From: Patescibacteria group bacterium
GTDB taxonomy: Bacteria > Patescibacteriota > Patescibacteriia > UBA9934
Assembly (NCBI GenBank): GCA_018062825.1
Contig: JAGORL010000001.1
Coordinates: 125,432 to 189,431, forward strand
DNA length: 64,000 nt
Direction of reading: 5' to 3'
The notes under the pieces: generated by a model
Told to the model about the DNA's origin: nothing
Databases searched by the model: none
Seen by the model: the letters and a program-made list of their open reading frames with translations, nothing else
In this document: in pieces, positions 28,743 through 47,221 of the stretch
Layout of the letters: every line of letters begins with the position of its first letter
How positions within the stretch are numbered: position 1 is the stretch's first letter
Translations under genes and position numbers: made by a program

Positions 28743-30734
28743 CTAGCGAGCGAACTTCTTAAACAGCGTAACATCGATATCCATAACAAGGTCAGCCCAA
28801 TCGGCGCCAAAACGTTCCTGTGCCGCTTCCTCGCTGGTAATGTACTCAAGCATCGGTCCGGCGGATCCGGTAATGACATGGAATACCTCAGGTTTGCTTT
28901 GTATCTTTACGAGCGATCCAGGCTTTGGAAGCGCAGGCGAGCCCATGGGGATAGTGGCTAGGGTAGCGTCGGTTACCGTATGAACTGCATCAAAATCAGC
29001 AAACCACGTGAAGTAAATGGCGGATGTCATGAACGGTCGGCGAGTGCCGTTCTCAAGAAGGTAGACGGCGTCAAAGTGCTCGCCCTTGATAAGAAGCATG
29101 CCTGTCACGTTCGTAATCGGTTCAATTTCACCATTCCATGGCGATGGCCCGGTGAGCTCCGTTGTTTGCTCGGCTTCCTCATCAACCACCTCTTCATCGA
29201 TAATAGTCTCTTCTGGGCAGTTAGGTGCAGTGATTGAGGCAGTTGCTGAGAGCGTTACTCGAGTGCCCGAGCTGTTGCGAAGAAGAGCGTAGGCAGTTAC
29301 CGACCCGTTCTGCTCTTGAAACGTCCACGGCACAGTTACTGAACCGTCCGTGAGAGAACTCCAGGTACCGCTTGAAAATAATGCATCATGAGCAAGCGTG
29401 TATTCGGTCGCTCCAGGGGCGCTAATGGTCACCATGCCACTTGGGGCAGCGCCTGTACACGAGGTAGCTAAATCAGTAATTCCCATCGTCGCGCCTGTGA
29501 TTGGCGTGATGATCGTTGAGGAAGACGATCGTTCAGTTGTAAAAGTCCAAGCTGTATTACTCGTAATACCAGCAAAGCTACCTCCGGTAGTTGCATCAAA
29601 GGCAGTAGCATCAATGCGTACATATACTTCAGTGCCGCCAGGAAGTGAGACTGTTGGATTGATGGTGATAGTATCGGTGCCGTCTCCTGTTACCTGGCCG
29701 CTCGTCACGTTGATGGTGGTAAGTACGGCGTCATTACTTACGCGATAGATCGTGATATTTCCCGTTTCAACATTAACTGCTTGATCAAAAGTGATAACAA
29801 GATTTTCATTGCGATCAATATCTACGGCGCTGTCGGTTGGAGAAATAGTATCGATAACAGGCGCTTCGTATGTGGTGATGGTGAATTCGTTACCTGCCGT
29901 TTCCGGAAGATCGCCGTCAGCTCCGAACTCAACAACATAGCCTTGAAGCATGGTGCCGGAGCAGGGAAGATCATTCCAAAGGCCAGTTCCGCCAGAGAGG
30001 AATTGCCCACAATCTTCACCAGCGCCGTGTTCATTTGGTTCTCCAGAGCTCCAGTTTTCATACTCGCCAGGAACGACGGTGCCGTTACCAACCCCAACCC
30101 AGAAAAGATCGCCACTTTCAGGGCCGGTAACCCAGCGCCAGTCGCCTTCAACACTGGCATCACTTGCACCCATCCAGCCCGCGCCAGCTAGGCGATCAGC
30201 GACGAAATCATTTTCTTCTTCAGAAGTGATGGTCGTAAGGTATCCCGTTGAACCGTAACGCGAAAGAAGTTCAGCTGCTGCTTCTGCCGCAACCCAATCG
30301 ATATCACCAGGAACCGAAATGTATTCGTAAAGGTGACCATTGTCTGAAAAGAAGACTTCACCAGACTCAACAAGTGAGACTTCAAGCGCATCAGCTCCGG
30401 TTGAATTGCGGGTATAGGTCAGCGTAGCAAGCGCGTCGTTTACATCCTCATAATCTCCTGAGAAGTAAATTTCAGCTCCGGTGGATGGTCCGTCAAATGT
30501 TAGGCCGGTAGTGGTACTCATAGCGAGAGTTCCGTGCGTAACAAGAAGCTTAACAGGAATTACGCCTGTACTACCGGTAATTTCAAGATCAGGGAAAGTA
30601 AAAGCCACGCCTTCGGTAGCCTCTAAGTTATCGGTACCGGTAATTTCCCACGGACTATCAGCGTGAACGGCAGGGGCATGAAAGAGTGATCCGAAAAGAA
30701 CTAAAGCAATCGCTAAGGCGAATATTTTTTTCAT
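28743..30734 (-). CDS. secreted protein with Ig-like domains and a C-type lectin-like domain
   Basis: signal peptide MKKIFALAIALVLFGSLFHAPAVHA; CTLD pattern WMGASD..VEGDWRWVTG......W...NG......ENWSSGEPN.HGAGEDCGQFL.....LWNDLPC......YVVEF. Confidence 0.6.
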   Translation of the reverse strand: MKKIFALAIALVLFGSLFHAPAVHADSPWEITGTDNLEATEGVAFTFPDLEITGSTGVIPVKLLVTHGTLAMSTTTGLTFDGPSTGAEIYFSGDYEDVNDALATLTYTRNSTGADALEVSLVESGEVFFSDNGHLYEYISVPGDIDWVAAEAAAELLSRYGSTGYLTTITSEEENDFVADRLAGAGWMGASDASVEGDWRWVTGPESGDLFWVGVGNGTVVPGEYENWSSGEPNEHGAGEDCGQFLSGGTGLWNDLPCSGTMLQGYVVEFGADGDLPETAGNEFTITTYEAPVIDTISPTDSAVDIDRNENLVITFDQAVNVETGNITIYRVSNDAVLTTINVTSGQVTGDGTDTITINPTVSLPGGTEVYVRIDATAFDATTGGSFAGITSNTAWTFTTERSSSSTIITPITGATMGITDLATSCTGAAPSGMVTISAPGATEYTLAHDALFSSGTWSSLTDGSVTVPWTFQEQNGSVTAYALLRNSSGTRVTLSATASITAPNCPEETIIDEEVVDEEAEQTTELTGPSPWNGEIEPITNVTGMLLIKGEHFDAVYLLENGTRRPFMTSAIYFTWFADFDAVHTVTDATLATIPMGSPALPKPGSLVKIQSKPEVFHVITGSAGPMLEYITSEEAAQERFGADWADLVMDIDVTLFKKFAR

Positions 30735-30800
30735 ACAATTGCAAAAAGTATAGCATGCAGCGTGAGCGATAAAGTAGTGAAATTTGAACAATATCTAGAT

Positions 30801-32163: not shown

Positions 32164-32240
32164 TGGCGGGACGGACGGGACTCGAACCCGCAACTTCTGC
32201 CGTGACAGGGCAGTGCTCTAACCAATTGAACTACCGTCCC
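32164..32240 (-). tRNA. tRNA-Asp (anticodon GUC), CCA encoded
   Basis: reverse complement GGGACGGTAGTTCAATTGGTTAGAGCACTGCCCTGTCACGGCAGAAGTTGCGGGTTCGAGTCCCGTCCGTCCCGCCA folds as cloverleaf: 7-bp acceptor, D-arm GTTC/GAGC, anticodon stem CTGCC/GGCAG loop CTGTCAC, T-loop TTCGAGT. Confidence 0.85.
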
Positions 32241-32907: not shown

Positions 32908-33279
32908 TCAGTTCGCGCGTGCCTCGAGAACCTGGATGAGCTCCGGGCGGGAGCTGAGGCTCGTGAGGTACAGGCGTTCGTCGGTCTGCACCACGTATCC
33001 CCAGAGCAGGGACTCGTGAACGACCGGATTCGCATGCTGGATGCTCTCCCAGCCTTCGAGGGTTTCGATGCGGCTGAGGCCTCGGAGTGGCTCGATCAGT
33101 CCACCGTAGTAGACCTGATCCAGGCACACGCTGGAGAAGAACCCCAGCATGATGCCGATGAGAAGGAAGAACGTCGCAACGTCCTTATCCTCGGTGCGGG
33201 TGCGGGTAGCGATGCGGGAGATGAGGCTGGACATGGTGTCCTCCTGCGGGGTGGGAACGGGGAAGGAGCGTAGGTACAA
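32908..33279 (-). CDS. small hypothetical membrane protein (GC-rich segment)
   Basis: one TM helix FFLLIGIMLGFFSSV; last gene of the GC-rich minus-strand string. Confidence 0.35.
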   Translation of the reverse strand: MYLRSFPVPTPQEDTMSSLISRIATRTRTEDKDVATFFLLIGIMLGFFSSVCLDQVYYGGLIEPLRGLSRIETLEGWESIQHANPVVHESLLWGYVVQTDERLYLTSLSSRPELIQVLEARAN

Positions 33280-33361
33280 GAGTAATCATAGCAAATTTGA
33301 GCCATTTTGTCAATCAAAAACCCCACGTCATCTTGCGATGCGTGGGGGACGTTTTAGCCTG

Positions 33362-33724
33362 CTAGAGGCTGAAGATACGCTCGAACTCATCGATGCCCAC
33401 CGGCTTCGAGACCGCGTGAGCGTTCAACCGCTGCAGCTCTCGATAGTCAGCATGGTGGACGTCGCCCGAGTTCGCGATGAACAAGGGCGAAGGGTTGAGG
33501 CTCTGCGTAATCCGGTAGATATCAAGGGCGGTTGCGCCCGGGAAGTTGATGTCGCACACGACCACATCGAAGTGCTCGCTGCGCAAGAGGCGCATGGCTT
33601 CCACGCCCTCCGTCGTGTGCACGACGTTCAGGCGCTTGCCTAGTCGCGCGAAGATTCGAGGGAAGAGTTGTACGTAGACGGTGCCGAGTGCGGCATCATC
33701 TTCCACGATCAGCATCTTCTGCAT
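33362..33724 (-). CDS. stand-alone response-regulator receiver (CheY-like) protein, copy 1
   Basis: MLIVEDD...FDVVVCDINFPG...SKP receiver motifs; no output domain. Confidence 0.6.
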   Translation of the reverse strand: MQKMLIVEDDAALGTVYVQLFPRIFARLGKRLNVVHTTEGVEAMRLLRSEHFDVVVCDINFPGATALDIYRITQSLNPSPLFIANSGDVHHADYRELQRLNAHAVSKPVGIDEFERIFSL

Positions 33725-33825
33725 GCCTGAAAGCCTATCCACGAAACCTCCGGTGAGAAAGGAAAAGGGACCAGAGGTCATTGCTGACTTGGTCCCCACG
33801 TTTGCCGTCAGGTCGAGCCTGGCAG

Positions 33826-35151
33826 CTACTTGTTGTCGGTGTCCGCTTCGGTGCGGACCGGTTCGAAGTTGCCGCCTTCGTCGACGGTGATCGTCGGCTC
33901 GACGTCTTCGATGAACTCGGCGAACTGCGGCGGTTTCGGGCTGCACGTGGGCTGCCCGTCACCGTTCGTCTGACCCAGGCCCCAGCACCGAGCGATCGCG
34001 CCCGACGTGGAGGGGAGGGTCGTGTAGGAGCCACCACTGACGACGATCACCTCCTTGAGGTTGATCGTCACGCCGTCGCCATCGCCAGCGACGAGCACGT
34101 GCCCACCGTTGTCACCCGCCGGACCCTTGCGCAGGTCCGGGGCGCAGACCTCCCACCTCTCGTAGTGAGAGAGGTTGGGCCAGTCGAGCTGCACGCTTTC
34201 GAGGGCGCGCTTCTCGTACTCGATGATCGTGCACTTCTGAGCCACGCCCTCGACCTCGACGGTCGCGAGCACGGTGTCGCCGGAGACGGCCACGTAGTAC
34301 TCGTGGCTCACGCTGCTCTCTCCGGGATCCGGCACGGTGGCCGGCACCACCGCGACCGGCTCGGAGCCGATCGTGGCGTTGTCACCACCGGTCGTGAGTG
34401 CGTACAGCCCGATCCCGCCGCCCGTGAAGGCGACGAACCCGAGCACACACACGAGGACCACGGCCATGACGGCCACAGCCCCGATCAGCGGTCGGTGGTT
34501 GCTCGACGCCCGGGCGACGGGGATGTCATCCTCGTCATCCGGCTCGTACTGCACCTCGGCCACCATGGGCGGCTTGGTGTCCCCGAACCACGCTCGATCG
34601 TCGACGTCGGTCGGCCCCGGCGTATTCACGGGGGGCGGCGGCGCTGCCGTCGGCTGAGGCGGCTTCAGGGAGAGCGGCGGGGGCGGGGCATCGGAAGGGG
34701 CGTCGTCCGCCTCCTCCTCCGCTCGCCTGGCCATCTCTTCCTTGGTGAACACGCCGGTTCCATCGCTCGGGTCCGGCGGGGGGAAGACCGGCTGCCTGCT
34801 GATCGTTCCCCCACGCGCACTCGGTCGCGGCGCAGGGCGCGGGTTCGGTCCCGCCCTGAGGGACTCGGGACCGACGCTCGTCGCCGGGAAGGCGACCCGC
34901 GTGCTGGATCCGCGCTCGGTGCTCGGCCCGGGGAGATCCCCGAGCGACTCGTCGAGCATGTCACCACCGACCGGTTCGAGATCTTGTCCCGACAGGTCGA
35001 TGATGGGCTCGTGAGCCCTGCTGCTCGGAACCGTCGCGACCGGAGCGGGGCGAACGGCGGGCGTGGGACGCCCCTCGTCGCTGCTCCTGTCGGCCTCGTC
35101 ACTCATGTCGTCGTCCATCGGACGACCGTCCTGTTCGTCTCCGCCCATCAT
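33826..35151 (-). CDS. single-pass membrane protein, long Pro/Asp-rich cytoplasmic N-region + 4-Cys extracytoplasmic domain (cassette copy 1)
   Basis: RBS GGAGG-5nt-ATGATG at 35151; TM helix LIGAVAVMAVVLVCVLGFVAF; C-domain ...CTIIEYEK...LDWPN.S..ERWEVC..DL......G..L.......I.L.EVI...G.YT.L.ST.GA.ARCWG.GQ.NGDGQP.C.PKP shared with the copy at 35768. Confidence 0.5.
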   Translation of the reverse strand: MMGGDEQDGRPMDDDMSDEADRSSDEGRPTPAVRPAPVATVPSSRAHEPIIDLSGQDLEPVGGDMLDESLGDLPGPSTERGSSTRVAFPATSVGPESLRAGPNPRPAPRPSARGGTISRQPVFPPPDPSDGTGVFTKEEMARRAEEEADDAPSDAPPPPLSLKPPQPTAAPPPPVNTPGPTDVDDRAWFGDTKPPMVAEVQYEPDDEDDIPVARASSNHRPLIGAVAVMAVVLVCVLGFVAFTGGGIGLYALTTGGDNATIGSEPVAVVPATVPDPGESSVSHEYYVAVSGDTVLATVEVEGVAQKCTIIEYEKRALESVQLDWPNLSHYERWEVCAPDLRKGPAGDNGGHVLVAGDGDGVTINLKEVIVVSGGSYTTLPSTSGAIARCWGLGQTNGDGQPTCSPKPPQFAEFIEDVEPTITVDEGGNFEPVRTEADTDNK

Positions 35152-35314
35152 GAGGGCCTCCAGTGCTGGTGGAAGGTGCATGTCACGAACAAAGATGCCC
35201 AAGGAGGGCAAGATCGTCGTCGACCGCGAACTATAGCCAAAAATAAGAAAAACGTCAAGCAAAGGCAGAAAAGAAACACCCGCCACATTCCGGTAAGGGA
35301 TGGGCGGGTACGTG

Positions 35315-35683
35315 CTAGGTAAGTCCGAAGGCCGCGGCAAGTGCCTGGGGGCCATACGGTTTATAGAGGACCGTGACCCCGCGCTCCTTGAGCGTGGTCA
35401 CGTCGGCATGATTGGGATTGCCCGTATTGGCTACGAAGAGCGCTTGGGGCGAGGCTTGTCCCACAAGGTCATGCACCTCGACCGAATTCCCGTGAGGAAA
35501 CTCGATGTCAGACAAGACGTAGTCGAACTTCTTGGTCATGATCGCCTTCCTGGCCTCGTGGCCGTCGGCAGCGATCGTGATGACGGTCGTGTGACCGGCA
35601 TTTGCGAACAGTCGAGCGCAGGTGCGCTGAGCCGCCCGCTGCAAGAGATCGTTATCCTCCACGATCAGGACAAAGTATTCCAC
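35315..35683 (-). CDS. stand-alone response-regulator receiver (CheY-like) protein, copy 2 (GTG start)
   Basis: VLIVEDND...FDYVLSDIEFP...YKP; RBS GGAGA upstream. Confidence 0.65.
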   Translation of the reverse strand: MEYFVLIVEDNDLLQRAAQRTCARLFANAGHTTVITIAADGHEARKAIMTKKFDYVLSDIEFPHGNSVEVHDLVGQASPQALFVANTGNPNHADVTTLKERGVTVLYKPYGPQALAAAFGLT

Positions 35684-35767
35684 ACCACTCTCCTATAAAA
35701 GATGAGAGGGGACCGACGCACAGCATGGCTGATTGTCGATCCCCTCGAGGGTTGCTGCGAAGTACTG

Positions 35768-36412
35768 CTACTTCGCGGCGGCGTTCTGGGCGACCACGTT
35801 GGCGGGCGCGGCGGGCTTCGGCGTGCAGGCGGGCTGCCCGTCACCGTTGACCTGGCCAGCACCCCAGCAGCGCGCGAGCGCTCCGGGGGTGGAGACGAGG
35901 GCGGTATAGTCGCCGGTGGTCGTGATGACCTCCGACAACTTGATCCGCTTCCCGCCGACCGTGAGCACCATCGCGCCGTGGGCATCGGCGGCCTCCTTCT
36001 TCAGGTCGGTGCCGCAGATCTCCCACCGCTCCTTGGAGCTCTTGTTCGGCCAGGTCAGGTCGACGCCCTCGATCAGGTCCTTCTCGAAGGTCACGATGGC
36101 ACACAGGTGATCCTGGCGCTTGATCGTGACCGGGGCGAGGCGGACGTCGTCGTTGACGGCGACCGTGATCGGACCGGGGGTGATGGTCACCGCGAGCGGC
36201 GTCTCGCCGGGGTCGCTGGTCTCCTCGGCCACCACCACGGTCGGCTGGTTGCCGACGGCGGGGGTGCGCGACATGTAGCCGACGCCGATCATGAGGATGA
36301 CCATGAGCACGCCGAGAAAACCGGCGATCATGAGGGGGTTGTAGCCCCCTTGGTCGTTCTTGACCTCGCTCGTGTGGGTGGTGGTCTCGGTCGTGATGGA
36401 CGGCTCGGACAT
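35768..36412 (-). CDS. single-pass membrane protein with the same 4-Cys extracytoplasmic domain (cassette copy 2)
   Basis: RBS GGAGG-4nt-ATG at 36412; MSEPSITTE...; TM LMIAGFLGVLMVILMIGVGY; C-domain ...CAIVTFEK...LTWPNKSSKERWEICGTDL...ARCWGAGQVNGDGQPACTPKP. Confidence 0.5.
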   Translation of the reverse strand: MSEPSITTETTTHTSEVKNDQGGYNPLMIAGFLGVLMVILMIGVGYMSRTPAVGNQPTVVVAEETSDPGETPLAVTITPGPITVAVNDDVRLAPVTIKRQDHLCAIVTFEKDLIEGVDLTWPNKSSKERWEICGTDLKKEAADAHGAMVLTVGGKRIKLSEVITTTGDYTALVSTPGALARCWGAGQVNGDGQPACTPKPAAPANVVAQNAAAK

Positions 36413-36537
36413 GGTGCCTCCAGAGGCGTGGGAAGGTGCGTGTCGCGATAAGTGAAGCCGTTGTGGCCTACCGATCGCTGACCAACTATAATAGCAGAAA
36501 AACCCTGTTTCGTCAAGGTTGCTGATTGCAAGAACAA

Positions 36538-36568
36538 ACAAAAACACCGCTAATTTTAGCGGTGTTTT
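36538..36568 (-). terminator. rho-independent terminator downstream of rplT (possibly bidirectional)
   Basis: AAAAACACCGCTAA-ttt-TAGCGGTGTTTTT perfect 13-bp stem flanked by A/T runs. Confidence 0.8.
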
Positions 36569-36576
36569 TGATCTGC

Positions 36577-36921
36577 TTACTTAGCAGACTCAACGATCTT
36601 TTTGAAGATTGCTGGCTGATGTTCTGCAATCTGGGCCAAAACCTTACGATCCAAGCTGATCTTTGCCTTCTTAAGGTTGGCAATGAAAGCGGAGTAGGTG
36701 GTGCCAAGTTCACGCACAGCGGCGTTGATCTTAAGGGTCCAGAGGTTGCGGAAGGTGCGCTTCTTAGCACGGCGGTCGCGGAAAGCGTAAACACCGGCTT
36801 TAAGCATAGCTGGGCGAGCAAGGCGGATCTTGCTCTTTCGGCCCCAGCGGTAGCCTTTCACGCGCTTCAAGAGGTTCTTGCGGCGCTTTGTATGTTGTGT
36901 ACCGCGTTTGACGCGTGGCAT
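36577..36921 (-). CDS. rplT: 50S ribosomal protein L20
   Basis: MPRVKRGTQHTKRRKNLLKRVKGYRWGRK... canonical L20. Confidence 0.9.
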   Translation of the reverse strand: MPRVKRGTQHTKRRKNLLKRVKGYRWGRKSKIRLARPAMLKAGVYAFRDRRAKKRTFRNLWTLKINAAVRELGTTYSAFIANLKKAKISLDRKVLAQIAEHQPAIFKKIVESAK

Positions 36922-37849: not shown

Positions 37850-38261
37850 TGGTGGACTTGAGGAGAGTTGAACTCCTGTCCGGTCAGCCGCCCGATAGTG
37901 ATTATTCCAAGCTCATGCACGCTTGAGAGTACGACCAGAGCGCTAAAGGCGTGCCGTAAATGCGCTCGTGAAGATCCTTTCGCCAGAGGTCACGTTGCCG
38001 GAAAAGATAACAGCAACGTCAATCCTAGATAGATATAACACCTGTGATTCTTACTCTAGGCAGCAAGAGACAGATGGTTGCAGGCTTTATTAAGCGGCAA
38101 CAAACGCGAATGAAGGTGTAGCAAATGCCGAAGCAAGTGCGGCCTTAGCGCGTGAGAATACGTTGGCAGGTATTCGAATTGCATCATTGGGTTGCGGGGT
38201 AATGGTGCACCCCCGGCTTGATCATCTATCGTTTGTACTGCCGTCGATTCCCGGCAAGCCC
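37850..38261 (-). ncRNA. ssrA: tmRNA (ssrA), about 412 nt
   Basis: 5' GGGCUUGCCGGGAAUCGACGG (tmRNA 5' consensus GG.UUCGACGG); 3' AGGAG-UUCAACU-CUCCU-CAAGUCC-ACCA; acceptor GGGCUUG/CAAGUCC with G3:U70; internal ORF ending GCG UUU GUU GCC GCU UAA UAA; 12 nt downstream of smpB stop. Confidence 0.7.
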
Positions 38262-40923: not shown

Positions 40924-42039
40924 ATGCCTGAACAAAAATCTTCCATTTTCCCATTCGGATTCCTTCTACTGGCTGTAACGCTAAGCGCGGCTACGGCAGT
41001 TATTGCCGCTGTTAGTGTTTCAAATAGCCTTGATCGTTATGCAGCGACGCTCCTTGATGATCGCCGCTTTGCAGCACTTGCGCCACAAAAAGCGAGCCCA
41101 ATTCCAGGAACATATGAGGAAGCGTTGCAGCGTGTTCGAGAAAAAACCTATCCTGCTTACGCTCTGATTTTTGAAAAAGGGGCAACCACGGTTTACCCAG
41201 ATCTCTTTGTGGCAGACGCTGAAGCGTTAGCTCGCGGCATGGTGATCACCTCAGATGGCTGGATCATGACGGCATCCACGGCTGCGTTTGAGGCTGATGA
41301 GATCTCCATTGCTATTGAAGGGAAGTGGTACGTGGTGGCGCAGGTTGTGCAAGATATCGATTCGCCATACGTGCTCATGAAGGTTGCTGAGGCTTCGGGG
41401 TTAGCAACGATCGGGTTTGGTGATTCAGCTCAGATGCGCGCTGGAGAGATGGCGTTTGCTCTTACAGCTGACCGCGCAATCGAGCCTTTATCAATTGTAA
41501 ATATCGCGCCGGCAAACGGCGCAGCTCCGGAAGAGGCTGAGCGTGTGACAGACGTTTTTACGTCATCATTAAGTCTTGAGGCTGGCACTCCAGTTGTAAA
41601 TGGTTCAGGTGACGTAATCGGTTTTGCGATCGGAGAAGATGCTATTGCGCCACTACATCAAGCAACCCTCTTTGCTCGTGACGTTGTTCGCGGTCGCGAC
41701 GTAGTAGCGGCGGGGCTTGGTGTATACGTGAGTGAAGTTTCTCGTATTATAAATATCGATCCAGTTCTCGCGCAGGGACAGGTAGCGGGCGCGCTCATTG
41801 GTGCGCCTGTGCGTGGGGGAGTGGCGGTTGTTCCTGGTAGTCCCGCGGCAAACGCTGGTCTTTTAGCGAAAGATATCATTGTAGCGGTAGATGGCACGCC
41901 GCTTACGGCAGATACCTCACTTGCTGAGATGTTGCAGTTATATGATCCAGGCGAAAGCGCTCGCCTGTCATTAATGCGCTCAAACGAGCGTATCGAGGTA
42001 ACAGTTACCTTTATTGATAGCGCACAGATTGAGTACTAA
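40924..42039 (+). CDS. membrane-anchored HtrA-like protein with C-terminal PDZ domain; protease catalytic motifs degenerate
   Basis: N-terminal TM, trypsin-like core without GNSGGP, C-terminal PDZ (GAPVRGGVAVVPGSPAANAGLLAKDIIVAVDGTPL). Confidence 0.45.
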   Translation: MPEQKSSIFPFGFLLLAVTLSAATAVIAAVSVSNSLDRYAATLLDDRRFAALAPQKASPIPGTYEEALQRVREKTYPAYALIFEKGATTVYPDLFVADAEALARGMVITSDGWIMTASTAAFEADEISIAIEGKWYVVAQVVQDIDSPYVLMKVAEASGLATIGFGDSAQMRAGEMAFALTADRAIEPLSIVNIAPANGAAPEEAERVTDVFTSSLSLEAGTPVVNGSGDVIGFAIGEDAIAPLHQATLFARDVVRGRDVVAAGLGVYVSEVSRIINIDPVLAQGQVAGALIGAPVRGGVAVVPGSPAANAGLLAKDIIVAVDGTPLTADTSLAEMLQLYDPGESARLSLMRSNERIEVTVTFIDSAQIEY

Positions 42040-42060
42040 AAGATATACCCAATAAGTGGA

Positions 42061-42086
42061 AAAACCGGCTTGACGTGCCGGTTTTT
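42061..42086 (+). terminator. rho-independent terminator
   Basis: AAAACCGGC-ttgacgtg-CCGGTTTTT. Confidence 0.8.
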
Positions 42087-42241
42087 GCTTTGTTAAGGTC
42101 GGCCTGACCTCGATTTCGGGGACTTCGTGGAACGGTCGTGACGTCTCCTCCTCGTCGCGATTCGCGCCCGCGAAGTCTCCAAAGCCGAGGTCATTTTTAT
42201 TGAAAAATTGCTAGTTTTAGCCAAGGAATGACAGGGAAATC

Positions 42242-42270
42242 TTGACATTTCCCGTATTTTTTGCTACTAT
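42242..42270 (+). promoter_or_regulatory. near-consensus sigma70-type promoter (TTGACA-17-TACTAT) driving the GC-rich gene pair
   Basis: cTTGACAtttcccgtattttttgcTACTATagactg. Confidence 0.55.
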
Positions 42271-42458
42271 AGACTGTTCGAGAAAGCAGCCAAATGAACG
42301 GTATTCCCTCGGCTCAATTGCGTTCCACTCCTCCAGGGACGCAGTTGAGCCACGGGAGTGCCGTTCGGGCGCTACCACAGAACGGGCCTCGCCCGAACAC
42401 CACGCGTCCTTTCCACTCACTGTCAGTTTGCCGCTTTCACTAGCGGCTGGAGGATCCG

Positions 42459-43391
42459 ATGATCAAGCTCATCTCCCTGTTCGCCCTCGCCGCTTTCGCC
42501 CCGGTCGCCATGGCCGACGCCCCGCCCGAGTGCGTGACGCCGTGCCCCCCGGGCCCGACGGTCACGAGCGGCAGCAACTCCGCGGAGGCCGTCCAGGCCG
42601 ACGTGCAGCAGCTCCGCAGCGACCTCCGGCGCCTCAAGGCGCGGGTGGTCACGCTCGAAGGCCAGCAGGCCACCGACGAGGCCACCCGCCTCGCCGAGAT
42701 CGAGCGCCGCCTGTCGGTGCTCGAAGGCAAGATGGACGCCCTCGACCCCGCCGCCGTCAAGGTGGAGCTCACCTCGCTCCGCAGCGACCTCACCGCCCTC
42801 ACCGGGCGCGTGGCGGCGCTCGAGGAGGACATGCGTCTCATCAAGGATCGCGTCACCGCCCTCGAGGTGGCACGGGTCGCGGAGGTCATCATGCCCCGCC
42901 TCGTCACCTTCGCGACCAGCGTCGGTGCCAGCGGTTTCGCGGCCAACGGCCACGACGTCGTCTCCGACGACATGGTGTTCCACGCCTCTCCGTCCGCGGG
43001 TGGCGCGTTCGACCTCTCGGTCGGCGTGCTCGTGCGGCCCGAGGAGATCCCGATGTACTTCGGTGCCAGCGTCGCCCCGCGCCTCTCGTTCGACGAAGGG
43101 TACGGCGGCTCGCTCATCGGACGCGTCGGCGGAACGCTGGGGCCGGCCAAGGGGATGGAGCTCGGCTTGCTCGGTGGCGTGGACTTCTTCCACGACCCGA
43201 ACCTGCAGGCTCCGGACTGGATGCCCAACCCCATCCGGCAGAGCTGGCGTGGGCTGGTCGGCGCCGAGTACAACTACATCTTCTTCCGGAGTGATTCCGG
43301 ACAGGAGATCGGACTCGGTGTCGAAGCCAGCGTCCTGCCCGGTCGCGAGATCGAGGGACGGTTCCTGGGTGCGGTCAAGGCTCGGTTCTAA
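42459..43391 (+). CDS. secreted protein: signal peptide + coiled coil + beta-rich C-terminal domain ending in Phe (GC-rich)
   Basis: RBS GGAGGA; MIKLISLFALAAFAPVAMA signal; heptad-rich 60-150; alternating hydrophobic strands; C-terminal ...GAVKARF. Confidence 0.5.
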   Translation: MIKLISLFALAAFAPVAMADAPPECVTPCPPGPTVTSGSNSAEAVQADVQQLRSDLRRLKARVVTLEGQQATDEATRLAEIERRLSVLEGKMDALDPAAVKVELTSLRSDLTALTGRVAALEEDMRLIKDRVTALEVARVAEVIMPRLVTFATSVGASGFAANGHDVVSDDMVFHASPSAGGAFDLSVGVLVRPEEIPMYFGASVAPRLSFDEGYGGSLIGRVGGTLGPAKGMELGLLGGVDFFHDPNLQAPDWMPNPIRQSWRGLVGAEYNYIFFRSDSGQEIGLGVEASVLPGREIEGRFLGAVKARF

Positions 43392-43619
43392 CCTCTCTGG
43401 TCAGTGACTTCGGTCGCTGATCGGACAGGTCGTGGCGCTGTGTGACATACGAAAGTATGTTGCATGGCGCCTATTCGTTTACCAAAAAATTGACGAAAAT
43501 AGAAAAATAGGCTACGGTACGGCGTCACTTTTCAAAGCTACCAAGAGTTGCACTTGCGGCATTTCTTGGGAGACTTGAAGAGGAATTGGCCTCTCAAGCT
43601 CACACATTCTGGAGGGAAC

Positions 43620-44714
43620 ATGTTCGGGTCGTGGTTTGCGGTTCTCGTCGGGCTCTTGGAGGCTCCGGCCTTCGCAGCAGACGGTTCGCTCGTCAGTGCT
43701 CCACCGTCGGTGGATCGCATGAGGAGCGACTTGGAGACCCACGCGGGTCTCATCGAGGCGCTCAACAAGCGCGTCGAGACGCTCGCGCTGCAGGTTCCGA
43801 ACCTGCAGCAGGGGCCGCGCACGGTTCCGTCCGCGACGCGCATCGCCGAGCTCACCGAGTTCAGGAGTCGCCTGAAGTACCTCGAGGAGAACGGCGCGAG
43901 CGACGAAGAGCTCGCCGCGCTCGCAACGCGCGTCGACGCCTTCACGGCCAACATCGGTGCACTGGAGGGACGCATCGGTGTGGTGGAGCGCGGCCTCAGC
44001 ACGAACGCCACGATCGACGCCGAGCAGAGCATCGCGATCGCGAAGCTCCAGGTAGAGGTCGAAAACCTTCATCGGGCCGACGTCTACCTCACGGCGGAAA
44101 TCGTGGATGTCGACGTCAGGCAACGCTCATCGGGAGCTGGCGACATGGACCGGCTGCCGGTCAGCATGGAGCTCCTGTTCATCTCTGGCCAGGAGATGGG
44201 TGGCGGCAAGTACTACGAGTACCTCAGCGAGGACGTGGTCTGGCAGCGTTACCCGAACACGGCAACGCTCCTTGGTGGAGGTTTCGGCCTTCACTTCACC
44301 CCCAAGAAGCAGAAGCGGGAGCAGCTCTTCGGCTTCGGCATCGAGGCTCGAGGCATGTATGCCCCCGCGGGCGGCGCCTCGTTCGAGGCCCTGCTCTTGC
44401 CGACCGCCTTCGTCGATCCGCGCCGCCGCGCGAGTGTCGGCATGCTGCTCGGCTACCAGCTCCGAGCGATCGATCGCGCACAGAATGCCCCGAGCTTCGC
44501 GCGTGAGCGTCAGATCGAAGCGTACACCGACCACGGTCTCGTCGTCGGCGCCGCGATCGGGATCACGGTGATCGGATACGGGACCTCCTCGGGGCAAACC
44601 CCGGGCGAGCTCGTGCTCCGGCCCGAGATCAAGGTCGGCATCGCGAAGACTGCCAGCTACGGGTCCGTCGGCATGGCGGTCTTGTGGAGGATCGGGATTC
44701 CGAAGGACGAGTAG
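43620..44714 (+). CDS. paralogous secreted coiled-coil + beta-rich protein (GC-rich)
   Basis: RBS GGAGGG-3nt-ATG; signal MFGSWFAVLVGLLEAPAFAA; shared motif MRSDLETH versus LRSDLRRL with preceding gene; beta-strand-like C-terminus. Confidence 0.5.
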   Translation: MFGSWFAVLVGLLEAPAFAADGSLVSAPPSVDRMRSDLETHAGLIEALNKRVETLALQVPNLQQGPRTVPSATRIAELTEFRSRLKYLEENGASDEELAALATRVDAFTANIGALEGRIGVVERGLSTNATIDAEQSIAIAKLQVEVENLHRADVYLTAEIVDVDVRQRSSGAGDMDRLPVSMELLFISGQEMGGGKYYEYLSEDVVWQRYPNTATLLGGGFGLHFTPKKQKREQLFGFGIEARGMYAPAGGASFEALLLPTAFVDPRRRASVGMLLGYQLRAIDRAQNAPSFARERQIEAYTDHGLVVGAAIGITVIGYGTSSGQTPGELVLRPEIKVGIAKTASYGSVGMAVLWRIGIPKDE

Positions 44715-44738
44715 GAATCACTGATCACAAGGCGTACC

Positions 44739-44779
44739 GCCCCATCGTTGCATACGTGCAATGGTGGGGCCGTTTTTTT
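44739..44779 (+). terminator. rho-independent terminator (14-bp stem + T7)
   Basis: GCCCCATCGTTGCA-tacg-TGCAATGGTGGGGC-CGTTTTTTT. Confidence 0.8.
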
Positions 44780-46058
44780 ACTCATGATCAAAATGCCACC
44801 CGCTTGTACGTGCATGAAACGTAGTGCCAAGGGTGGAGGCACGCCGACAAACGCCAAATCCATAGCGCTCCGCTAGGCTATCAAGAGCCTGAGTGGCGCG
44901 CTCTTTCTTTTTATAAGCCGGAAGAAATGAACTGTTACTTTTTAAGCTCCATAGACCGCTAACCGAGATGCCAATAAGGCGAACCCCTTCATACAAAGGT
45001 AATTTTTCTTTAAGAATATCCCAAGCGTTTTCAAGAAGTTCGGCGCCATCAAAAAAGGGTTCTTTAAGATGTTTGCTTCCACCGTACCCGTGCATATCAG
45101 CGCCCCGGGCATAGACCTGCAGATGCGTCGCTGCTTGCTGAGATTTGCGCATACGCCAACAGACGCGATCACAAAGAGCAAGTAGGTTCTGCCGGATCTC
45201 AGAAGGCTCATGAAGATTGTGAGGGAAGGTATAGGAATGTCCGTAGGAGATTTGCTGATCTTGTGAAGTGTCGGTTACCACGTCATCACCAAGGCCACGC
45301 GCCGCTTGAAAAAGAAAGTGACCATAGCTTTTAAACTCCGCCAGTAAAACAGTCAGAGGAATGTTGCGAAGTGTAGCAACGGAGGTGGCGCCAAGGTGCT
45401 CAAGATGGCGTTCGGTTCTAAAACCAATGCCAGCAAAGGCAGCAAGCGGTTGCCCAAGAACAAAATCAGATACCTCATGTGGAGTAACAAGGGTGAGTCC
45501 ATCTGGTTTCATAGATTCTGAGGCAAGCTTGGCAACAAGTTTGTTGGGGGCAATGCCAATAGAAACGGTGCAGGCAACGCCGCAGGCTTTTCTGACATCG
45601 TTCTTAATGCGCTGAGCAAGAATGGTGGCGCCAAAATAATCGCCGCCAGAAGCAAGCGTAATGTCAGCAAAGGCTTCGTCGGTGCTGAATTGCTCAACGG
45701 CATCCGCGTGTTGGCGCAGAACCGTTAAAAAGCGTTTAGTAATTTCACTATACTTTAAAGGGTCTCCTGGAATGATGATCAGTTCCGGGCAAATCTTCTT
45801 TGCCTCAAAAGTATTCATGGCAGTTTTCACGCCACGACGCTTTGCTTCTTTGGAGGCCGTTGTAACTACAGATCGTCGGTGCTGAAGGCTATGAAGGGAT
45901 TGGCGATTGTTTGGAAGATCGCTTACTCCGCCAGCATCAAGAGGATCGCGGCCTTTGCCGGCAACGGCAATGGGCTGGCCTCGTAGCCGAGGGTTAGCCT
46001 GTTGTTCAACAGAAGCAAAGTAAGAATTGAAATCCATGTGCAGAATGATTCTGCCCAT
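44778..46058 (-). CDS. dinB: Y-family DNA polymerase (DinB/Pol IV-like)
   Basis: ILHMDFNSYFASVEQ...QPIAV; SIDEAF-type catalytic motif (FSTDEAFADI); little-finger region. Confidence 0.85.
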   Translation of the reverse strand: MGRIILHMDFNSYFASVEQQANPRLRGQPIAVAGKGRDPLDAGGVSDLPNNRQSLHSLQHRRSVVTTASKEAKRRGVKTAMNTFEAKKICPELIIIPGDPLKYSEITKRFLTVLRQHADAVEQFSTDEAFADITLASGGDYFGATILAQRIKNDVRKACGVACTVSIGIAPNKLVAKLASESMKPDGLTLVTPHEVSDFVLGQPLAAFAGIGFRTERHLEHLGATSVATLRNIPLTVLLAEFKSYGHFLFQAARGLGDDVVTDTSQDQQISYGHSYTFPHNLHEPSEIRQNLLALCDRVCWRMRKSQQAATHLQVYARGADMHGYGGSKHLKEPFFDGAELLENAWDILKEKLPLYEGVRLIGISVSGLWSLKSNSSFLPAYKKKERATQALDSLAERYGFGVCRRASTLGTTFHARTSGWHFDHE

Positions 46059-46067
46059 AGGTGATTG

Positions 46068-46451
46068 TTAGGCGCTGGCAAACTCAACGAGTCGCCATTC
46101 CAGAGTCTCCGTATCAAGTCGTAGTTTCATAAAGTCGTTATGATGCGAAACAGAGAAGTAAAAAACCCGCTTGTAACCCTCACGTGCACCATGCACGAGA
46201 TTAACCGAAGTGATGTCATACACCCTTGATCCCCAGCGCACATGGCGCGGACGAATCTTGGCCCCCGCAAAATCAACAGCAACGTCAACAGGATCGTTCA
46301 GATAGTCGTGCATAGGGGCGGTTGAGGCGTGAGAAGAGCGGTGCGTGCGCCTTATATGTTTGGCGCGCTTTGCAAGGAACGCGCGTAAGGCGCGGGAGCA
46401 CGAGGCGGATGGCGCGACGAATTTTGCGGAGCGTGAGCGGGTTTTTTCCAT
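46068..46451 (-). CDS. small hypothetical protein between lexA and dinB (possible YolD/UmuD-like accessory factor; positional inference only)
   Basis: ORF 127 aa with Arg/Ser-rich N-terminus; alternative ATG at about 46313 gives 81 aa. Confidence 0.3.
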   Translation of the reverse strand: MEKTRSRSAKFVAPSASCSRALRAFLAKRAKHIRRTHRSSHASTAPMHDYLNDPVDVAVDFAGAKIRPRHVRWGSRVYDITSVNLVHGAREGYKRVFYFSVSHHNDFMKLRLDTETLEWRLVEFASA

Positions 46452-46548
46452 ACAATGTTTTCGTTTTAGTCAATTCAATGGTTGCAATTGGTTTCAGGAA
46501 AACAACCGTGCTTGATGCAAGGGAAGACATAGAATTGTGGTAAGGGGA

Positions 46549-47172
46549 TTAAATTCTTGAGAACTTGCGAAGCACGGCGCGGACAATACCTTGAATGTTG
46601 ATGTCACCTTTGATGATGATTGGCTGCATGGTGCTATTGGCTGGCTGTAAACGGATATGATCTTTTTCCCGGTAGAAGCGTTTTAAGGTAGCGTAAGCGT
46701 TATTGAGAAGCGCGACGACGATATCCCCATTTTTCGGACTAGGATTTCTCTCTACAATGACGTAGTCACCGTCAAAGATGCCGTCTTCAATCATGGATCT
46801 ACCTTTGACCTTGAGAACATACGAATTAAGAGGATCAACCACGAAGTCTGATGGCACTGCAAAGGCTTCGGCATCCTCAATGGCTTCGATTGGTTCTCCG
46901 GCGGTGATAAGTCCGGCAAGTGGCAGCATGACGCTCATGGGTGTTAAGGGCTCAGCCTCGACAAGTTCAATGGATCTTGCGACGCCATGTTCTCCGGTAT
47001 TGATGATTCCTTTCTCACACAGCGCTTTGATATGCTGGTGAACCGTGGCTGGAGAGGAGAGGCCCAGCCTTTCAGCGATCTCTCGATACGAGGGCGTGTA
47101 GCCATTCTCTCTCACGAGTTCTTCTATGCAGGCGAGAACTTCACGTTGCTTTTTGGTGAGTGGTGGAAGCAT
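46549..47172 (-). CDS. lexA: LexA repressor
   Basis: wHTH N-domain, cleavage-site region, S24 peptidase Ser (GRSM) and Lys (KRF) motifs. Confidence 0.9.
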   Translation of the reverse strand: MLPPLTKKQREVLACIEELVRENGYTPSYREIAERLGLSSPATVHQHIKALCEKGIINTGEHGVARSIELVEAEPLTPMSVMLPLAGLITAGEPIEAIEDAEAFAVPSDFVVDPLNSYVLKVKGRSMIEDGIFDGDYVIVERNPSPKNGDIVVALLNNAYATLKRFYREKDHIRLQPANSTMQPIIIKGDINIQGIVRAVLRKFSRI

Positions 47173-47192
47173 AGGGGAGGTTATGCCGTTAC

Positions 47193-47221
47193 TATATACG
47201 AACAAAAACCGAACGCAAGAA
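47193..47221 (-). promoter_or_regulatory. putative lexA-operon promoter (-35 TTCTTG, 17 nt, -10 TATATA) containing a GTTC-N7-GTTC candidate SOS box (47200..47214)
   Basis: minus-strand reading TTCTTGcGTTCggtttttGTTCgTATATA, about 20 nt upstream of lexA ATG. Confidence 0.4.

What the first reader, a model, noticed from the sequence alone, without database searches (positions are those of the whole stretch)
42060..44780. Second GC-rich insert encoding two paralogous signal-peptide + coiled-coil + beta-rich proteins
Between the HtrA-like gene and dinB, a 2.7 kb block is visibly GC-rich. Three to four overlapping long ORFs in other frames have Arg-rich translations, which are composition artefacts. 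The two real genes (42459-43391 and 43620-44714) have GGAGG RBSs and Gram-negative-style signal peptides. Each has about 100 residues of heptad coiled coil, with shared MRSDLETH / LRSDLRRL segments. Each ends in a C-terminal domain of alternating hydrophobic residues, and the first ends in ...KARF. A terminal Phe is the hallmark of outer-membrane beta-barrel or OmpH/Skp-like proteins, which would be out of place in a monoderm-like CPR cell. The block is bracketed by strong terminators at 42061 and 44739. It has its own consensus promoter. This looks like acquisition of a foreign envelope-protein pair, or a contaminating contig joined in.
Basis: partly seen in the sequence, partly recalled or inferred. 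Interest (0 to 1): 0.6.

Follow-up and report, generated by a model that had tools for sequence, protein, structure and literature searches.

The report
GC-rich orphan envelope-protein genes, stably maintained
Two very GC-rich genes for secreted coiled-coil proteins sit in a 50%-GC Patescibacteria genome; they are not contamination or a fresh foreign insert but long-standing residents whose GC-richness has persisted through heavy silent-site turnover, which ordinary gene-transfer theory does not predict.

Summary
Gene 1 (42459-43391, GC3 0.91) and gene 2 (43620-44714, GC3 0.85) lie between an HtrA-like protease gene and dinB, whose GC3 is 0.42-0.43. The excess GC is confined to the two coding sequences. 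The spacers are about 50% GC and carry sigma-70-type promoters, GGAGG ribosome-binding sites and three terminators.

A chimeric assembly is refuted. Independent assemblies of a relative (HtrA 83% identical) carry the same HtrA-gene1-gene2-dinB block.

A recent foreign insert is also not supported. Fourfold-degenerate sites in neighbouring genes differ at 54% between the two genomes, yet GC at those sites stays at 0.89/0.92 (gene 1) and 0.81/0.78 (gene 2). Changes are mostly G<->C, with no net drift towards A/T.

An exhaustive profile search of the gene 1 C-terminal domain (1.84 billion cluster representatives of about 15 billion proteins) and word-indexed searches of both full-length proteins found no donor or family.

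The two proteins share architecture: signal peptide, about 100 helical residues, and a beta-rich C-terminus. Detectable similarity is limited to the coiled coil. Outer-membrane barrel status is untested.

More distant relatives also hold GC3-rich exported-protein genes at the same positions. The same previously undescribed structured RNA, with a CUCCUCC loop, precedes them.

The parts
42060..42086 (+). Intrinsic terminator of the HtrA-like gene. Its loop holds the -35 box of the next element.
   Evidence: One search finds a 10-bp stem followed by a T-run. The sequence is identical in L008.
42070..42099 (+). Promoter-like site TTGACG-18-TAAGGT in front of the structured RNA.
   Evidence: Read from the sequence. 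It is invariant in L008. L015 has TTGACA-17-TAAGGT at the same place. Function is inferred, not shown.
42105..42198 (+). Conserved structured RNA and candidate small RNA. It is a long hairpin with an invariant apical loop UCUCCUCCU and ends in a T-run.
   Evidence: MFE is -53 kcal/mol with z = -5.1. It is about 96% identical to L008 while silent sites are near saturation. The consensus has 34 pairs, 12 with compensatory changes over 4 lineages. The covariance model finds one copy per locus, always before the first GC3-rich exported-protein gene. No Rfam family matches.
42242..42270 (+). Gene 1 promoter: TTGACA, 17 nt, TACTAT, with a TG extension.
   Evidence: scores 10 of 12 matches. It is conserved in L001, L008 and L002.
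42277..42458 (+). Structured 5' leader of gene 1. P1 is a 25-bp hairpin at 42300-42362 with loop ACUCCUCCA (42327-42335). P2 spans 42363-42398. P3 (42427-42451) abuts the Shine-Dalgarno GGAGGA at 42449-42454.
   Evidence: MFE is -88 kcal/mol with z = -6.3. Three hairpins are conserved in three lineages, with one compensatory pair and four wobble changes. The leader is better conserved than the coding sequence. The loop is complementary to the Shine-Dalgarno sequence by inspection.
42459..43391 (+). Gene 1, 310 aa. It has a signal peptide (residues 1-19), a conserved CxxxC motif, helices at about 42-143, and a beta-rich Gly/aromatic domain at 146-310 ending in RF. GC3 is 0.91.
43434..43471 (+). 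Intrinsic terminator of gene 1.
   Evidence: One search finds a 17-bp stem. The hairpin is kept with a different sequence in L002.
43490..43518 (+). Gene 2 promoter-like site, TTGACG-17-TACGGT (TAAGGT in relatives).
   Evidence: It forms a conserved block in the three-lineage alignment. Function is inferred.
43620..44714 (+). Gene 2, 364 aa. It has a signal-peptide-like N-terminus without a basic residue, helices at about 31-148, and a beta-rich C-terminal domain ending WRIGIPKDE. GC3 is 0.85.
   Evidence: An orthologue with 54% identity is in L008, and its N-terminus is also seen in L002.
44739..44770 (.). Terminator shared by gene 2 and the convergent dinB.
   Evidence: One search finds a 14-bp stem. 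The hairpin is kept with a different sequence in L008.

Best explanation
This is a genuine, long-resident locus of a Patescibacteria lineage.

Locus layout (shown from sequence and conservation): there are two separate transcription units. Each has its own sigma-70-type promoter, a GGAGG ribosome-binding site and an intrinsic terminator.

Proteins (inferred from sequence and low-to-moderate confidence models): each is a fast-evolving, Sec-exported protein. It consists of a cleavable signal peptide, a stalk of about 100 helical, coiled-coil-like residues, and a C-terminal Gly/aromatic beta-rich domain. I infer that these are cell-envelope or surface proteins that oligomerise through the stalk and are anchored or displayed through the beta domain.

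Regulation (structure shown, mechanism inferred): gene 1 is preceded by two conserved RNA hairpins. One is a separate small-RNA-like element and the other is in the 5' leader. Their invariant CUCCUCC loops are complementary to the Shine-Dalgarno sequence. I infer that they control translation and/or stabilise the mRNA.

Composition (shown): the extreme GC3 is not a fading trace of a recent transfer and not an assembly chimera. It is a stationary property of these genes. Silent sites have turned over as much as or more than in neighbouring genes, but they change almost only between G and C in gene 1, and they sit at a GC4 equilibrium of about 0.8 in gene 2.

Cause of the composition (inferred, the weakest step): an ancient origin with foreign-like codon usage, followed by a gene-specific bias that favours fixation of G/C. 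The two candidates are recombination-associated biased gene conversion at a mosaic, diversifying surface-protein locus, or selection for GC-rich, long-lived mRNA.
For: Contiguity and age:
- The same block sits between HtrA and DinB in L008. Junctions are also covered by L001, L002 and L014.

Coding frames:
- Substitutions follow pos3 > pos1 > pos2, and the antisense ORFs are not conserved in length.

Maintenance of GC:
- Seven backbone genes (1044 fourfold sites) differ at 54%, with GC4 of 0.36-0.58.
- Gene 1 has GC4 0.89/0.92, with 40 G<->C, 12 S<->W and 1 A<->T changes. Gene 2 has GC4 0.81/0.78.
- G<->C divergence among sites that are G or C in both genomes is 24.5% in the backbone, 32.8% in gene 1 and 50.7% in gene 2. 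Gene 2's S<->W fraction of 0.307 is close to the saturation value for GC4 0.8.
- Polarising gene 1 changes over three lineages gives S>S 53, S>W 4 and W>S 8.
- A decay model built on the backbone process predicts GC4 of 0.67-0.71 by now, even from a starting value of 0.90-1.0.

Not translational selection:
- Native translation genes prefer GGT, GTT, CCA, CGT and CTT. The island genes use GGC, GTC, CCG, CGC and CTC, with both G- and C-ending codons.

Recombination:
- The coiled coil groups L001 with L002, but the C-terminal domain groups the window with L001 (Fisher p = 4e-4).

Clade-wide pattern:
- L009 and L015 (HtrA 34-37% identical) carry genes with GC3 of 0.73-0.98, most of them with signal-peptide, lipoprotein-type or membrane-spanning N-termini, at the same two positions.
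- The same RNA element lies upstream in those loci.

Expression signals and RNAs.

Protein architecture.
Against: - No expression, localisation or abundance data exist.
- The C-terminal domains have no family match and their models are below pLDDT 50, so 'envelope protein' rests on the signal peptide and general architecture.
- The maintenance argument rests mainly on one genome pair (window and L008), plus a third lineage for gene 1. It assumes vertical descent at this locus.
- Gene 2's GC4 of 0.78-0.81 is only 2-3 standard errors above the decay prediction.
- Positional counterparts in L009 and L015 show no detectable sequence homology. Deep conservation of the gene itself, as opposed to the slot and its RNA, is therefore not shown.
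- Biased gene conversion of this strength, confined to coding sequences, has no bacterial precedent that I know of.
- Selection for mRNA stability is conjecture.
Confidence: 0.55

Rival explanations
1. This is a classical horizontally acquired island. An envelope-protein pair, possibly a small outer-membrane barrel with a coiled-coil stalk, came from a high-GC diderm or actinobacterial donor or host. It is now slowly decaying towards the host composition.
For: - Codon-position GC of 0.71/0.48/0.91 and the codon choices match those of roughly 70%-GC genomes, and are shared with the other island in the window.
- The products are exported proteins. Gene 1 and its homologues end in Phe.
- Eight beta strands are predicted, and the non-significant fold hits are mostly outer-membrane barrels.
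- Genomic islands are common in Patescibacteria (PMC12455944).
Against: - No homologue was found in any donor. This holds for the exhaustive profile search with the gene 1 C-terminal domain and for word-indexed, phage, plasmid, viral and species-genome searches.
- There is no integrase, tRNA or direct repeat at the borders.
- The spacers have native-type composition and are conserved.
- The genes are present in every relative that covers the site.
- There is no net S>W drift even though silent sites are near saturation.
Confidence: 0.15
2. These are very abundant envelope proteins, for example S-layer-type proteins. Their genes would be selected for long-lived mRNA through a strong promoter, a stable 5' hairpin leader, a GC-rich body lacking AU-rich nuclease sites, and a strong terminator. 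Selection on the transcript would then keep the third codon positions G/C.
For: - The promoter is near consensus, the leader is about 180 nt with a 25-bp hairpin, the Shine-Dalgarno sequence is perfect, and each gene has its own terminator.
- G<->C changes are freely tolerated while A/T is excluded. This fits selection on overall composition rather than on particular codons.
- In the loci examined, most GC3-rich genes encode exported or membrane proteins.
- From my own knowledge, S-layer genes typically carry stabilising 5' leaders.
Against: - No expression data exist.
- The codons used are not those preferred in native translation genes.
- The proteins are small (31-37 kDa mature) and have no SLH or other wall-anchoring domain.
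- Other exported proteins in the window, such as the lectin/Big_5 protein and HtrA, have ordinary GC3.
Confidence: 0.2
3. This is an assembly or binning chimera, in which a piece of a GC-rich organism's contig was stitched into the Patescibacteria contig.
For: The only support is the abrupt compositional change.
Against: - Four independent assemblies from other samples reproduce the junctions. One 13-kb contig of a different lineage holds the whole syntenic block.
- The GC change follows the coding-sequence borders, with native spacers between them.
Confidence: 0.01
4. The coding sequences are repeatedly replaced by imported GC-rich alleles, from a host or from a GC-rich accessory gene pool. 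The composition would then reflect the source rather than any process inside the Patescibacteria genome.
For: - Gene 1 is a mosaic.
- Silent G<->C divergence is equal to or above that of the backbone.
- Different, non-homologous GC-rich genes occupy the same slots in distant relatives.
Against: - No source sequence was found by the exhaustive search with the gene 1 C-terminal profile or by the word-indexed searches of both proteins, although those databases include assemblies from the same samples.
- Replacement would require homology in spacers of native composition.
Confidence: 0.1

Closest known systems
OmpM/SlpA-type envelope tethers of Deinococcus-Thermus and Negativicutes (SLH domain, coiled coil, C-terminal beta-barrel). 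The comparison draws on my own knowledge and PMC10743373.
   Same: Both have a signal peptide, a long coiled-coil stalk and then a C-terminal beta-rich domain. Gene 1 ends in an aromatic residue.
   Different: There is no SLH or any other wall-binding domain. The beta domain is only about 165-200 residues with about 8 predicted strands. There is no sequence or profile similarity. The organism belongs to a group described as monoderm (PMC8871954).
Compositionally atypical genomic islands acquired by horizontal transfer
   Same: The codon usage differs sharply from the backbone. The genes are orphan exported-protein genes at a variable locus next to conserved genes.
   Different: There are no mobility genes, att repeats or tRNA at this island. 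The excess GC is confined to the coding sequences. The locus is conserved in relatives. The composition has not drifted towards the host despite near-saturated silent divergence.
GC3 enrichment of recombining genes attributed to GC-biased gene conversion in bacteria (Lassalle et al. 2015, cited from my own knowledge)
   Same: A/T alleles are excluded while G<->C changes accumulate freely. There is evidence of intragenic mosaicism. Protein evolution is accelerated.
   Different: The magnitude here is 0.8-0.9 against 0.45, and it is restricted to a few genes. This is far beyond reported bacterial effects. The recombination rate was not measured.
C-rich-loop regulatory small RNAs that pair with Shine-Dalgarno sequences, such as RsaE/RoxS in Firmicutes (from my own knowledge)
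   Same: Both have a hairpin with an exposed C/U-rich loop complementary to GGAGG, a transcription unit of their own, and a terminator-like 3' end.
   Different: There is no Rfam match. The element is one long 34-bp hairpin. A second copy of the loop motif lies in cis in the target's own leader. Expression and targets are untested.

Membership tests
Outer-membrane beta-barrel protein (BAM substrate) | N-terminal Sec signal peptide | tested here: met
   By inspection, both proteins have a 19-residue hydrophobic N-terminus ending AMA|D (gene 1) or AFA|A (gene 2), and this is conserved in the homologues. No predictor was available.
Outer-membrane beta-barrel protein (BAM substrate) | C-terminal beta-signal ending in an aromatic residue | tested here: inconclusive
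   Gene 1 and both of its homologues end in xRF, with alternating hydrophobic residues before it. Gene 2 and its orthologue end in IPKDE or IPKNE.
Outer-membrane beta-barrel protein (BAM substrate) | Closed barrel with an even number of amphipathic strands | tested here: inconclusive
   AlphaFold2 places about 8 strands in gene 1 residues 167-292, but pLDDT is below 50. Foldseek hits are mostly barrels, but none has E below 0.3.
Outer-membrane beta-barrel protein (BAM substrate) | Match to a known OMP family profile | tested here: not met
   Pfam finds no family for the C-terminal domains even at E up to 10. The PDB profile search finds nothing relevant.
Outer-membrane beta-barrel protein (BAM substrate) | The organism has an outer membrane and BamA | not testable with these tools
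   Only 64 kb of the 406-kb contig is held. CPR bacteria have been described as monoderm (PMC8871954).
Skp/OmpH chaperone | OmpH profile match and a beta body formed by N- and C-terminal strands around helical arms, in a protein of about 160 aa | tested here: not met
   There is no OmpH hit. The beta domain is entirely C-terminal and the proteins are 310 and 364 aa.
Trimeric autotransporter adhesin | YadA-type C-terminal anchor of about 70 residues after a coiled-coil stalk | tested here: not met
   No YadA anchor or stalk families are found. The beta domain is 165-200 residues.
Recently acquired genomic island | Atypical composition | tested here: met
   GC3 is 0.85-0.91 against 0.42-0.56 in the neighbours.
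Recently acquired genomic island | Patchy presence among close relatives, or an empty site | tested here: not met
   The genes are present at the same site in L008/L001 and in L002. No empty site was found.
Recently acquired genomic island | Homologues in a donor lineage | tested here: not met
   Searches find only the three Patescibacteria-linked sequences.
Recently acquired genomic island | Mobility genes, a tRNA target or flanking direct repeats | tested here: not met
   There are no flanking repeats, no tRNA at this island, and the flanking genes are HtrA and DinB.
Recently acquired genomic island | Composition drifting towards that of the recipient | tested here: not met
   Searches show GC4 to be stationary, with S>W 4 against W>S 8.
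S-layer protein gene | Wall-anchoring domain (SLH, CWB2 or similar) and very high abundance | tested here: not met
   No anchoring domain is found, and abundance cannot be tested. The strong promoter and the structured leader are present.
Any Rfam RNA family (for the two RNA elements) | Covariance-model match | tested here: not met
   Searches give only sub-threshold chance hits.

The most novel reading that the evidence does not exclude
A clade of Patescibacteria with about 50% GC keeps a distinct class of exported or envelope-protein genes at GC3 of 0.8-0.97 over evolutionary time. A gene-specific bias towards fixing G/C would do this, through recombination-linked biased gene conversion or selection on the mRNA. 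The result would be a stable two-class genome composition that imitates horizontal transfer but is not explained by it. The lead gene of the locus would be controlled by a previously undescribed pair of CUCCUCC-loop RNAs.
Probability: 0.4. Interest if true: 0.8.

Novelty: new variant of a known kind. Interest (0 to 1): 0.66.

Why it matters
Atypical GC content is the standard signal used to call recent horizontal transfer or MAG contamination, and such regions are often trimmed from genomes. Here the signal is extreme, yet the genes are old residents whose silent sites have been largely rewritten (fully so in gene 2) while staying G/C.

If this holds genome-wide, three things follow:
1. Composition-based island and contamination callers would misjudge this clade.
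2. It would be an unusually clean bacterial case for studying what holds GC content up, biased gene conversion or selection.
3. It would flag a set of fast-evolving surface proteins and their RNA regulators as candidates for the interface between these ultra-small bacteria and their hosts or phages.

There is also a practical point. One gene caller chose the wrong strand in these GC-rich genes, so such proteins are under-represented in protein databases.

Tried and rejected
Searches for relatives of the proteins:
- Homology searches with both proteins found only self and two Patescibacteria-linked homologues of gene 1.
- An exhaustive HMMER profile search with the gene 1 C-terminal domain found only self.
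- The species-representative genome scan with the gene 1 profile found nothing.
- Phage, plasmid and IMG/VR searches found nothing.
- Pfam gave only weak coiled-coil hits (DUF7310 at E 1e-4, below its cut-off) and nothing for the beta domains.
- The PDB profile search gave nothing relevant.
- There are no paralogues elsewhere in the window or the fetched loci.

Structure:
- AlphaFold2 was confident only for the helices.
- Foldseek on the weak model gave no hit below E 0.3.

RNA motif searches:
- A 21-nt leader motif recovered only the known JGI contig from the metagenome collection. In the species genomes it gave three hits in GC-rich actinobacterial genomes that appear to be chance. I read only L007, which lacks the hairpin.
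- Rfam returned nothing.

Ideas rejected:
- Paralogy of the C-terminal domains of genes 1 and 2.
- Homology of the window genes to the positional counterparts in L009 and L015.
- Homology of the island-1 gene to its L009 counterpart.
- Translational selection as the cause of the high GC3.
- A recent transfer of the block between the two lineages, because silent G<->C divergence is at least that of the backbone.
- Real antisense or alternative-frame genes.

Not informative:
- Strain-level SNP spectra. There are only 3 differences between L001 and L008, and none between L002 and L003 or between L014 and the window.
- The literature searches found no description of this pattern.

Full report
OBSERVATION

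The window has a backbone GC of about 0.50. Two stretches stand out, at 33-37 kb and 42.4-44.7 kb. At finer scale, the second stretch is not one uniform block. GC rises to 0.62-0.77 only inside two ORFs, while 42000-42400 and 43400-43600 stay at 0.48-0.51.

Gene 1 (42459-43391, 310 aa) has GC by codon position of 0.71/0.48/0.91. Gene 2 (43620-44714, 364 aa) has 0.67/0.46/0.85. The flanking HtrA-like gene has GC3 of 0.42 and dinB has 0.43. The flanks are confirmed as a Trypsin_2+PDZ protease and an IMS-family polymerase.

- GGAGG motifs before each ATG.
- A promoter, TTGACA-17-TACTAT, at 42242-42270.
- Terminators at 42060-42086 and 44739-44770.

The window comes from an NCBI 'Patescibacteria group bacterium' contig of 406 kb. 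NCBI annotates the same two proteins as hypothetical proteins KBC55_00940 and KBC55_00945.

NOT A CHIMERA

Gene 1 has two homologues, at 71% and 64% identity, on short contigs from other samples.
- L001 carries the 3' end of the HtrA gene, the same spacer and gene 1.
- L002 carries gene 1, the spacer and the start of a gene 2 homologue.
- L014 is an independent assembly identical to the window across the end of gene 1, gene 2 and dinB.
- L008 is a 13-kb contig of a relative whose HtrA is 83% identical. It holds SmpB, an AI-2E transporter, a membrane protein, HtrA, gene 1, gene 2, DinB, LexA and MetK in the same order.

Both junctions are therefore real. The gene caller used for L008 called the antisense ORFs instead. 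That explains why the protein database contained no gene 2 homologue.

The annotated frames are the real ones, for three reasons:
- Substitutions between the window and L008 follow pos3 > pos1 > pos2.
- The start codons, Shine-Dalgarno sequences and signal peptides are conserved.
- The antisense and alternative-frame ORFs differ in length and continuity between the two genomes.

THE PROTEINS

Both begin with a 19-residue hydrophobic segment that ends in a signal-peptidase-type site. Gene 2's lacks a basic residue, as do its homologues. AlphaFold2 predicts about 100 helical residues with pLDDT around 70-85, followed by beta hairpins with pLDDT below 50. Pfam gives only sub-threshold coiled-coil matches, and nothing at all for the C-terminal domains.

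Gene 1 has a conserved CxxxC motif just after the signal peptide, and all three homologues end in RF. Gene 2 ends in IPKDE.

The two proteins resemble each other only in the coiled coil. Their C-terminal domains are unrelated at the profile level. 'Paralogous' is therefore not established. They share an architecture.

An exhaustive profile search with the gene 1 C-terminal domain returned only its own cluster. That search covered 1.84 billion cluster representatives of about 15 billion proteins. Word-indexed searches of both full-length proteins, and searches of phages, plasmids, viral contigs and species-representative genomes, found nothing further.

The outer-membrane barrel idea remains open:
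- For it: a signal peptide, about 8 predicted strands and a terminal Phe in gene 1.
- Against it or missing: no family match, no reliable model and a different C-terminus in gene 2.
- CPR bacteria have been described as monoderm (PMC8871954).
- Fold hits of the weak model are mostly barrels, but none is significant.

THE COMPOSITION IS MAINTAINED, NOT DECAYING

This is the main result.

Between the window and L008, seven backbone genes have 83-100% amino-acid identity. They differ at 54% of 1044 fourfold-degenerate sites. Most of those differences are S<->W, and GC4 is 0.36-0.58. Silent sites are therefore close to randomised.

| Site class (window vs L008) | Fourfold sites | GC4 (window / L008) | G<->C among sites G or C in both | S<->W fraction |
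|---|---|---|---|---|
| Backbone (7 genes) | 1044 | 0.36-0.58 (range over genes) | 24.5% | 0.395 |
| Gene 1 | 142 | 0.89 / 0.92 | 32.8% | 0.085 |
| Gene 2 | 114 | 0.81 / 0.78 | 50.7% | 0.307 |

(Values are.)

Three further points follow from these counts:
- In gene 1, 53 of 142 fourfold sites differ: 40 are G<->C, 12 are S<->W and 1 is A<->T.
- Gene 2's S<->W fraction of 0.307 is close to the saturation value for a stationary GC4 of 0.8.
- The G<->C divergence shows that the two alleles are at least as old as the genome split, so a recent exchange between the lineages is excluded.

Polarising gene 1 changes over three lineages gives S>S 53, S>W 4 and W>S 8, so there is no net loss of GC. A two-state model fitted to the backbone predicts that a gene with GC4 of 0.90-1.0 at the split would now be at 0.67-0.71. 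Gene 1 is far above this prediction and gene 2 is moderately above it.

The high GC3 is not an exaggerated form of native codon preference:
- Native translation genes (L20, L35, IF3, SmpB) favour GGT, GTT, CCA, CGT and CTT.
- The island genes use GGC, GTC, CCG, CGC and CTC, and both G- and C-ending codons.
- Their usage is the same as in the first GC-rich island of the window.

The proteins evolve fast. Identity to L008 is 73.5% for gene 1 and 54% for gene 2. Gene 1 is a mosaic: its coiled coil groups L001 with L002, while its C-terminal domain groups the window with L001 (p = 4e-4).

A CLADE-WIDE PATTERN

More distant relatives with the same core synteny show the same picture. L009-L013 have HtrA at 37% identity, and L015/L016 at 34%. 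They carry genes with GC3 of 0.73-0.98 downstream of the HtrA cluster and next to rplT-infC, which is the position of the window's first island. Most of these genes have signal-peptide, lipoprotein-type or membrane-spanning N-termini.

The first such gene after HtrA has a signal peptide, a helical segment and a Gly/aromatic beta-rich domain. In L015 that domain ends ...YRF before a Pro/Ala tail. No sequence homology to gene 1 or gene 2 can be detected. What is demonstrably conserved is the slot, the architecture and the upstream RNA, not the gene itself.

REGULATORY RNAs

The HtrA-gene 1 spacer is about 90-96% identical between the window and L008, which is better conserved than the silent sites around it. 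It holds two elements.

1. A candidate small RNA at about 42105-42198.
   - It is a hairpin element of about 95 nt.
   - It follows a promoter-like TTGACG-18-TAAGGT and ends in a T-run.
   - Its apical loop UCUCCUCCU is invariant.
   - MFE z is -5.1.
   - Over four lineages, 12 of 34 pairs show compensatory changes.
   - A covariance model finds exactly one copy per locus, always just upstream of the first GC3-rich gene.
2. The gene 1 leader at 42277-42458.
   - It has three conserved hairpins, with z = -6.3.
   - P1 carries the loop ACUCCUCCA.
   - L009 and L015 have an equivalent C-rich-loop hairpin.

Both loops are complementary to the GGAGG(A) Shine-Dalgarno sequence. I infer translational control or mRNA stabilisation. 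Neither is shown. No Rfam family matches.

INTERPRETATION

Shown:
- The locus is real and is inherited within the lineage.
- There are two independent transcription units.
- The proteins have no known family.
- The GC3 is stationary.
- The upstream RNAs are conserved and structured.

Inferred:
- The products are exported envelope or surface proteins.
- A G/C-favouring fixation bias keeps the composition.

I cannot separate biased gene conversion at a recombining, diversifying locus from selection for GC-rich stable mRNA. Both predict free G<->C change and exclusion of A/T. An ancient foreign origin is possible but has no donor.

The closest known things are OmpM/SlpA-type coiled-coil-plus-barrel tethers for architecture, compositional genomic islands for appearance, and C-rich-loop small RNAs for the RNA. 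In each case at least one defining feature fails.

Literature searches found reports of islands in Patescibacteria, together with the usual expectation that old transfers lose their GC signature (PMC12455944). They also found an atypically coded, hypervariable surface-protein gene in a Gracilibacterium (PMC6851277). They found nothing describing this pattern.

Noticed in passing
window 33000-36600 (- strand ORFs 33826-35355 and 35768-36547): This is the first GC-rich island. It holds two membrane-anchored proteins whose C-terminal Cys-containing domains are 40% identical (BLASTP E 2e-38). GC3 is 0.83-0.87 and the codon usage matches that of genes 1 and 2. No Pfam family matches. The island lies directly downstream of rplT-rpmI-infC, between a tRNA (32167-32240) and the tmRNA (37850-38261). 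L009 and L015 also have GC3-rich genes at this position, but no homology is detectable.
   Followed up: partly
window 42105-42198 (+): This is a conserved structured RNA with an invariant CUCCUCC apical loop, its own promoter-like site and a T-run. It has one copy per locus in four lineages and 12 covarying pairs, and no Rfam match. It is a candidate new small-RNA family.
   Followed up: yes
L008 5642-6673 and 6763-7956 (- strand calls): The automatic gene caller for this public assembly called the antisense ORFs of both GC-rich genes. As a result, the true proteins are missing from the protein database, which makes such genes look more orphan than they are.
   Followed up: yes
L015 1-21032 (GCA_947084965.1): In this relative, GC3-rich genes (0.84-0.98) make up most of the 21-kb locus, whose overall GC is 0.61. 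Even rplT reaches GC3 of 0.79. One GC3 0.96 gene is inserted between SmpB and the AI-2E transporter. Several are lipoproteins with DTDTDT or MopE-like acidic repeats.
   Followed up: partly
window 42459-43391 compared with L001 and L002: Gene 1 has a mosaic history. The window's coiled-coil segment is the outlier (46 of 96 residues differ from L001), while its C-terminal domain is closest to L001 (26 of 166 differ). This suggests intragenic recombination or a burst of change in the stalk.
   Followed up: partly
window 42516-42560 (gene 1 residues 20-34): The motif DAPPEC-x3-C-PxGP lies immediately after the predicted signal-peptide cleavage site. Both cysteines are invariant in all three homologues. 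It may be a disulfide staple or a metal site at the tip of the stalk.
   Followed up: no
window 44778-47205 (- strand): dinB, two small ORFs and lexA form a conserved SOS-type cluster immediately next to the GC-rich genes. LexA is 100% identical in protein between the window and L008 even though 57% of its fourfold sites differ.
   Followed up: no
window 10603-19917 (+) and 28743-30791 (-): These are a 3104-aa ORF and a 682-aa exported protein with C-type lectin and Big_5 domains. Both have ordinary GC, so not all large or exported proteins of this genome belong to the GC3-rich class.
   Followed up: no
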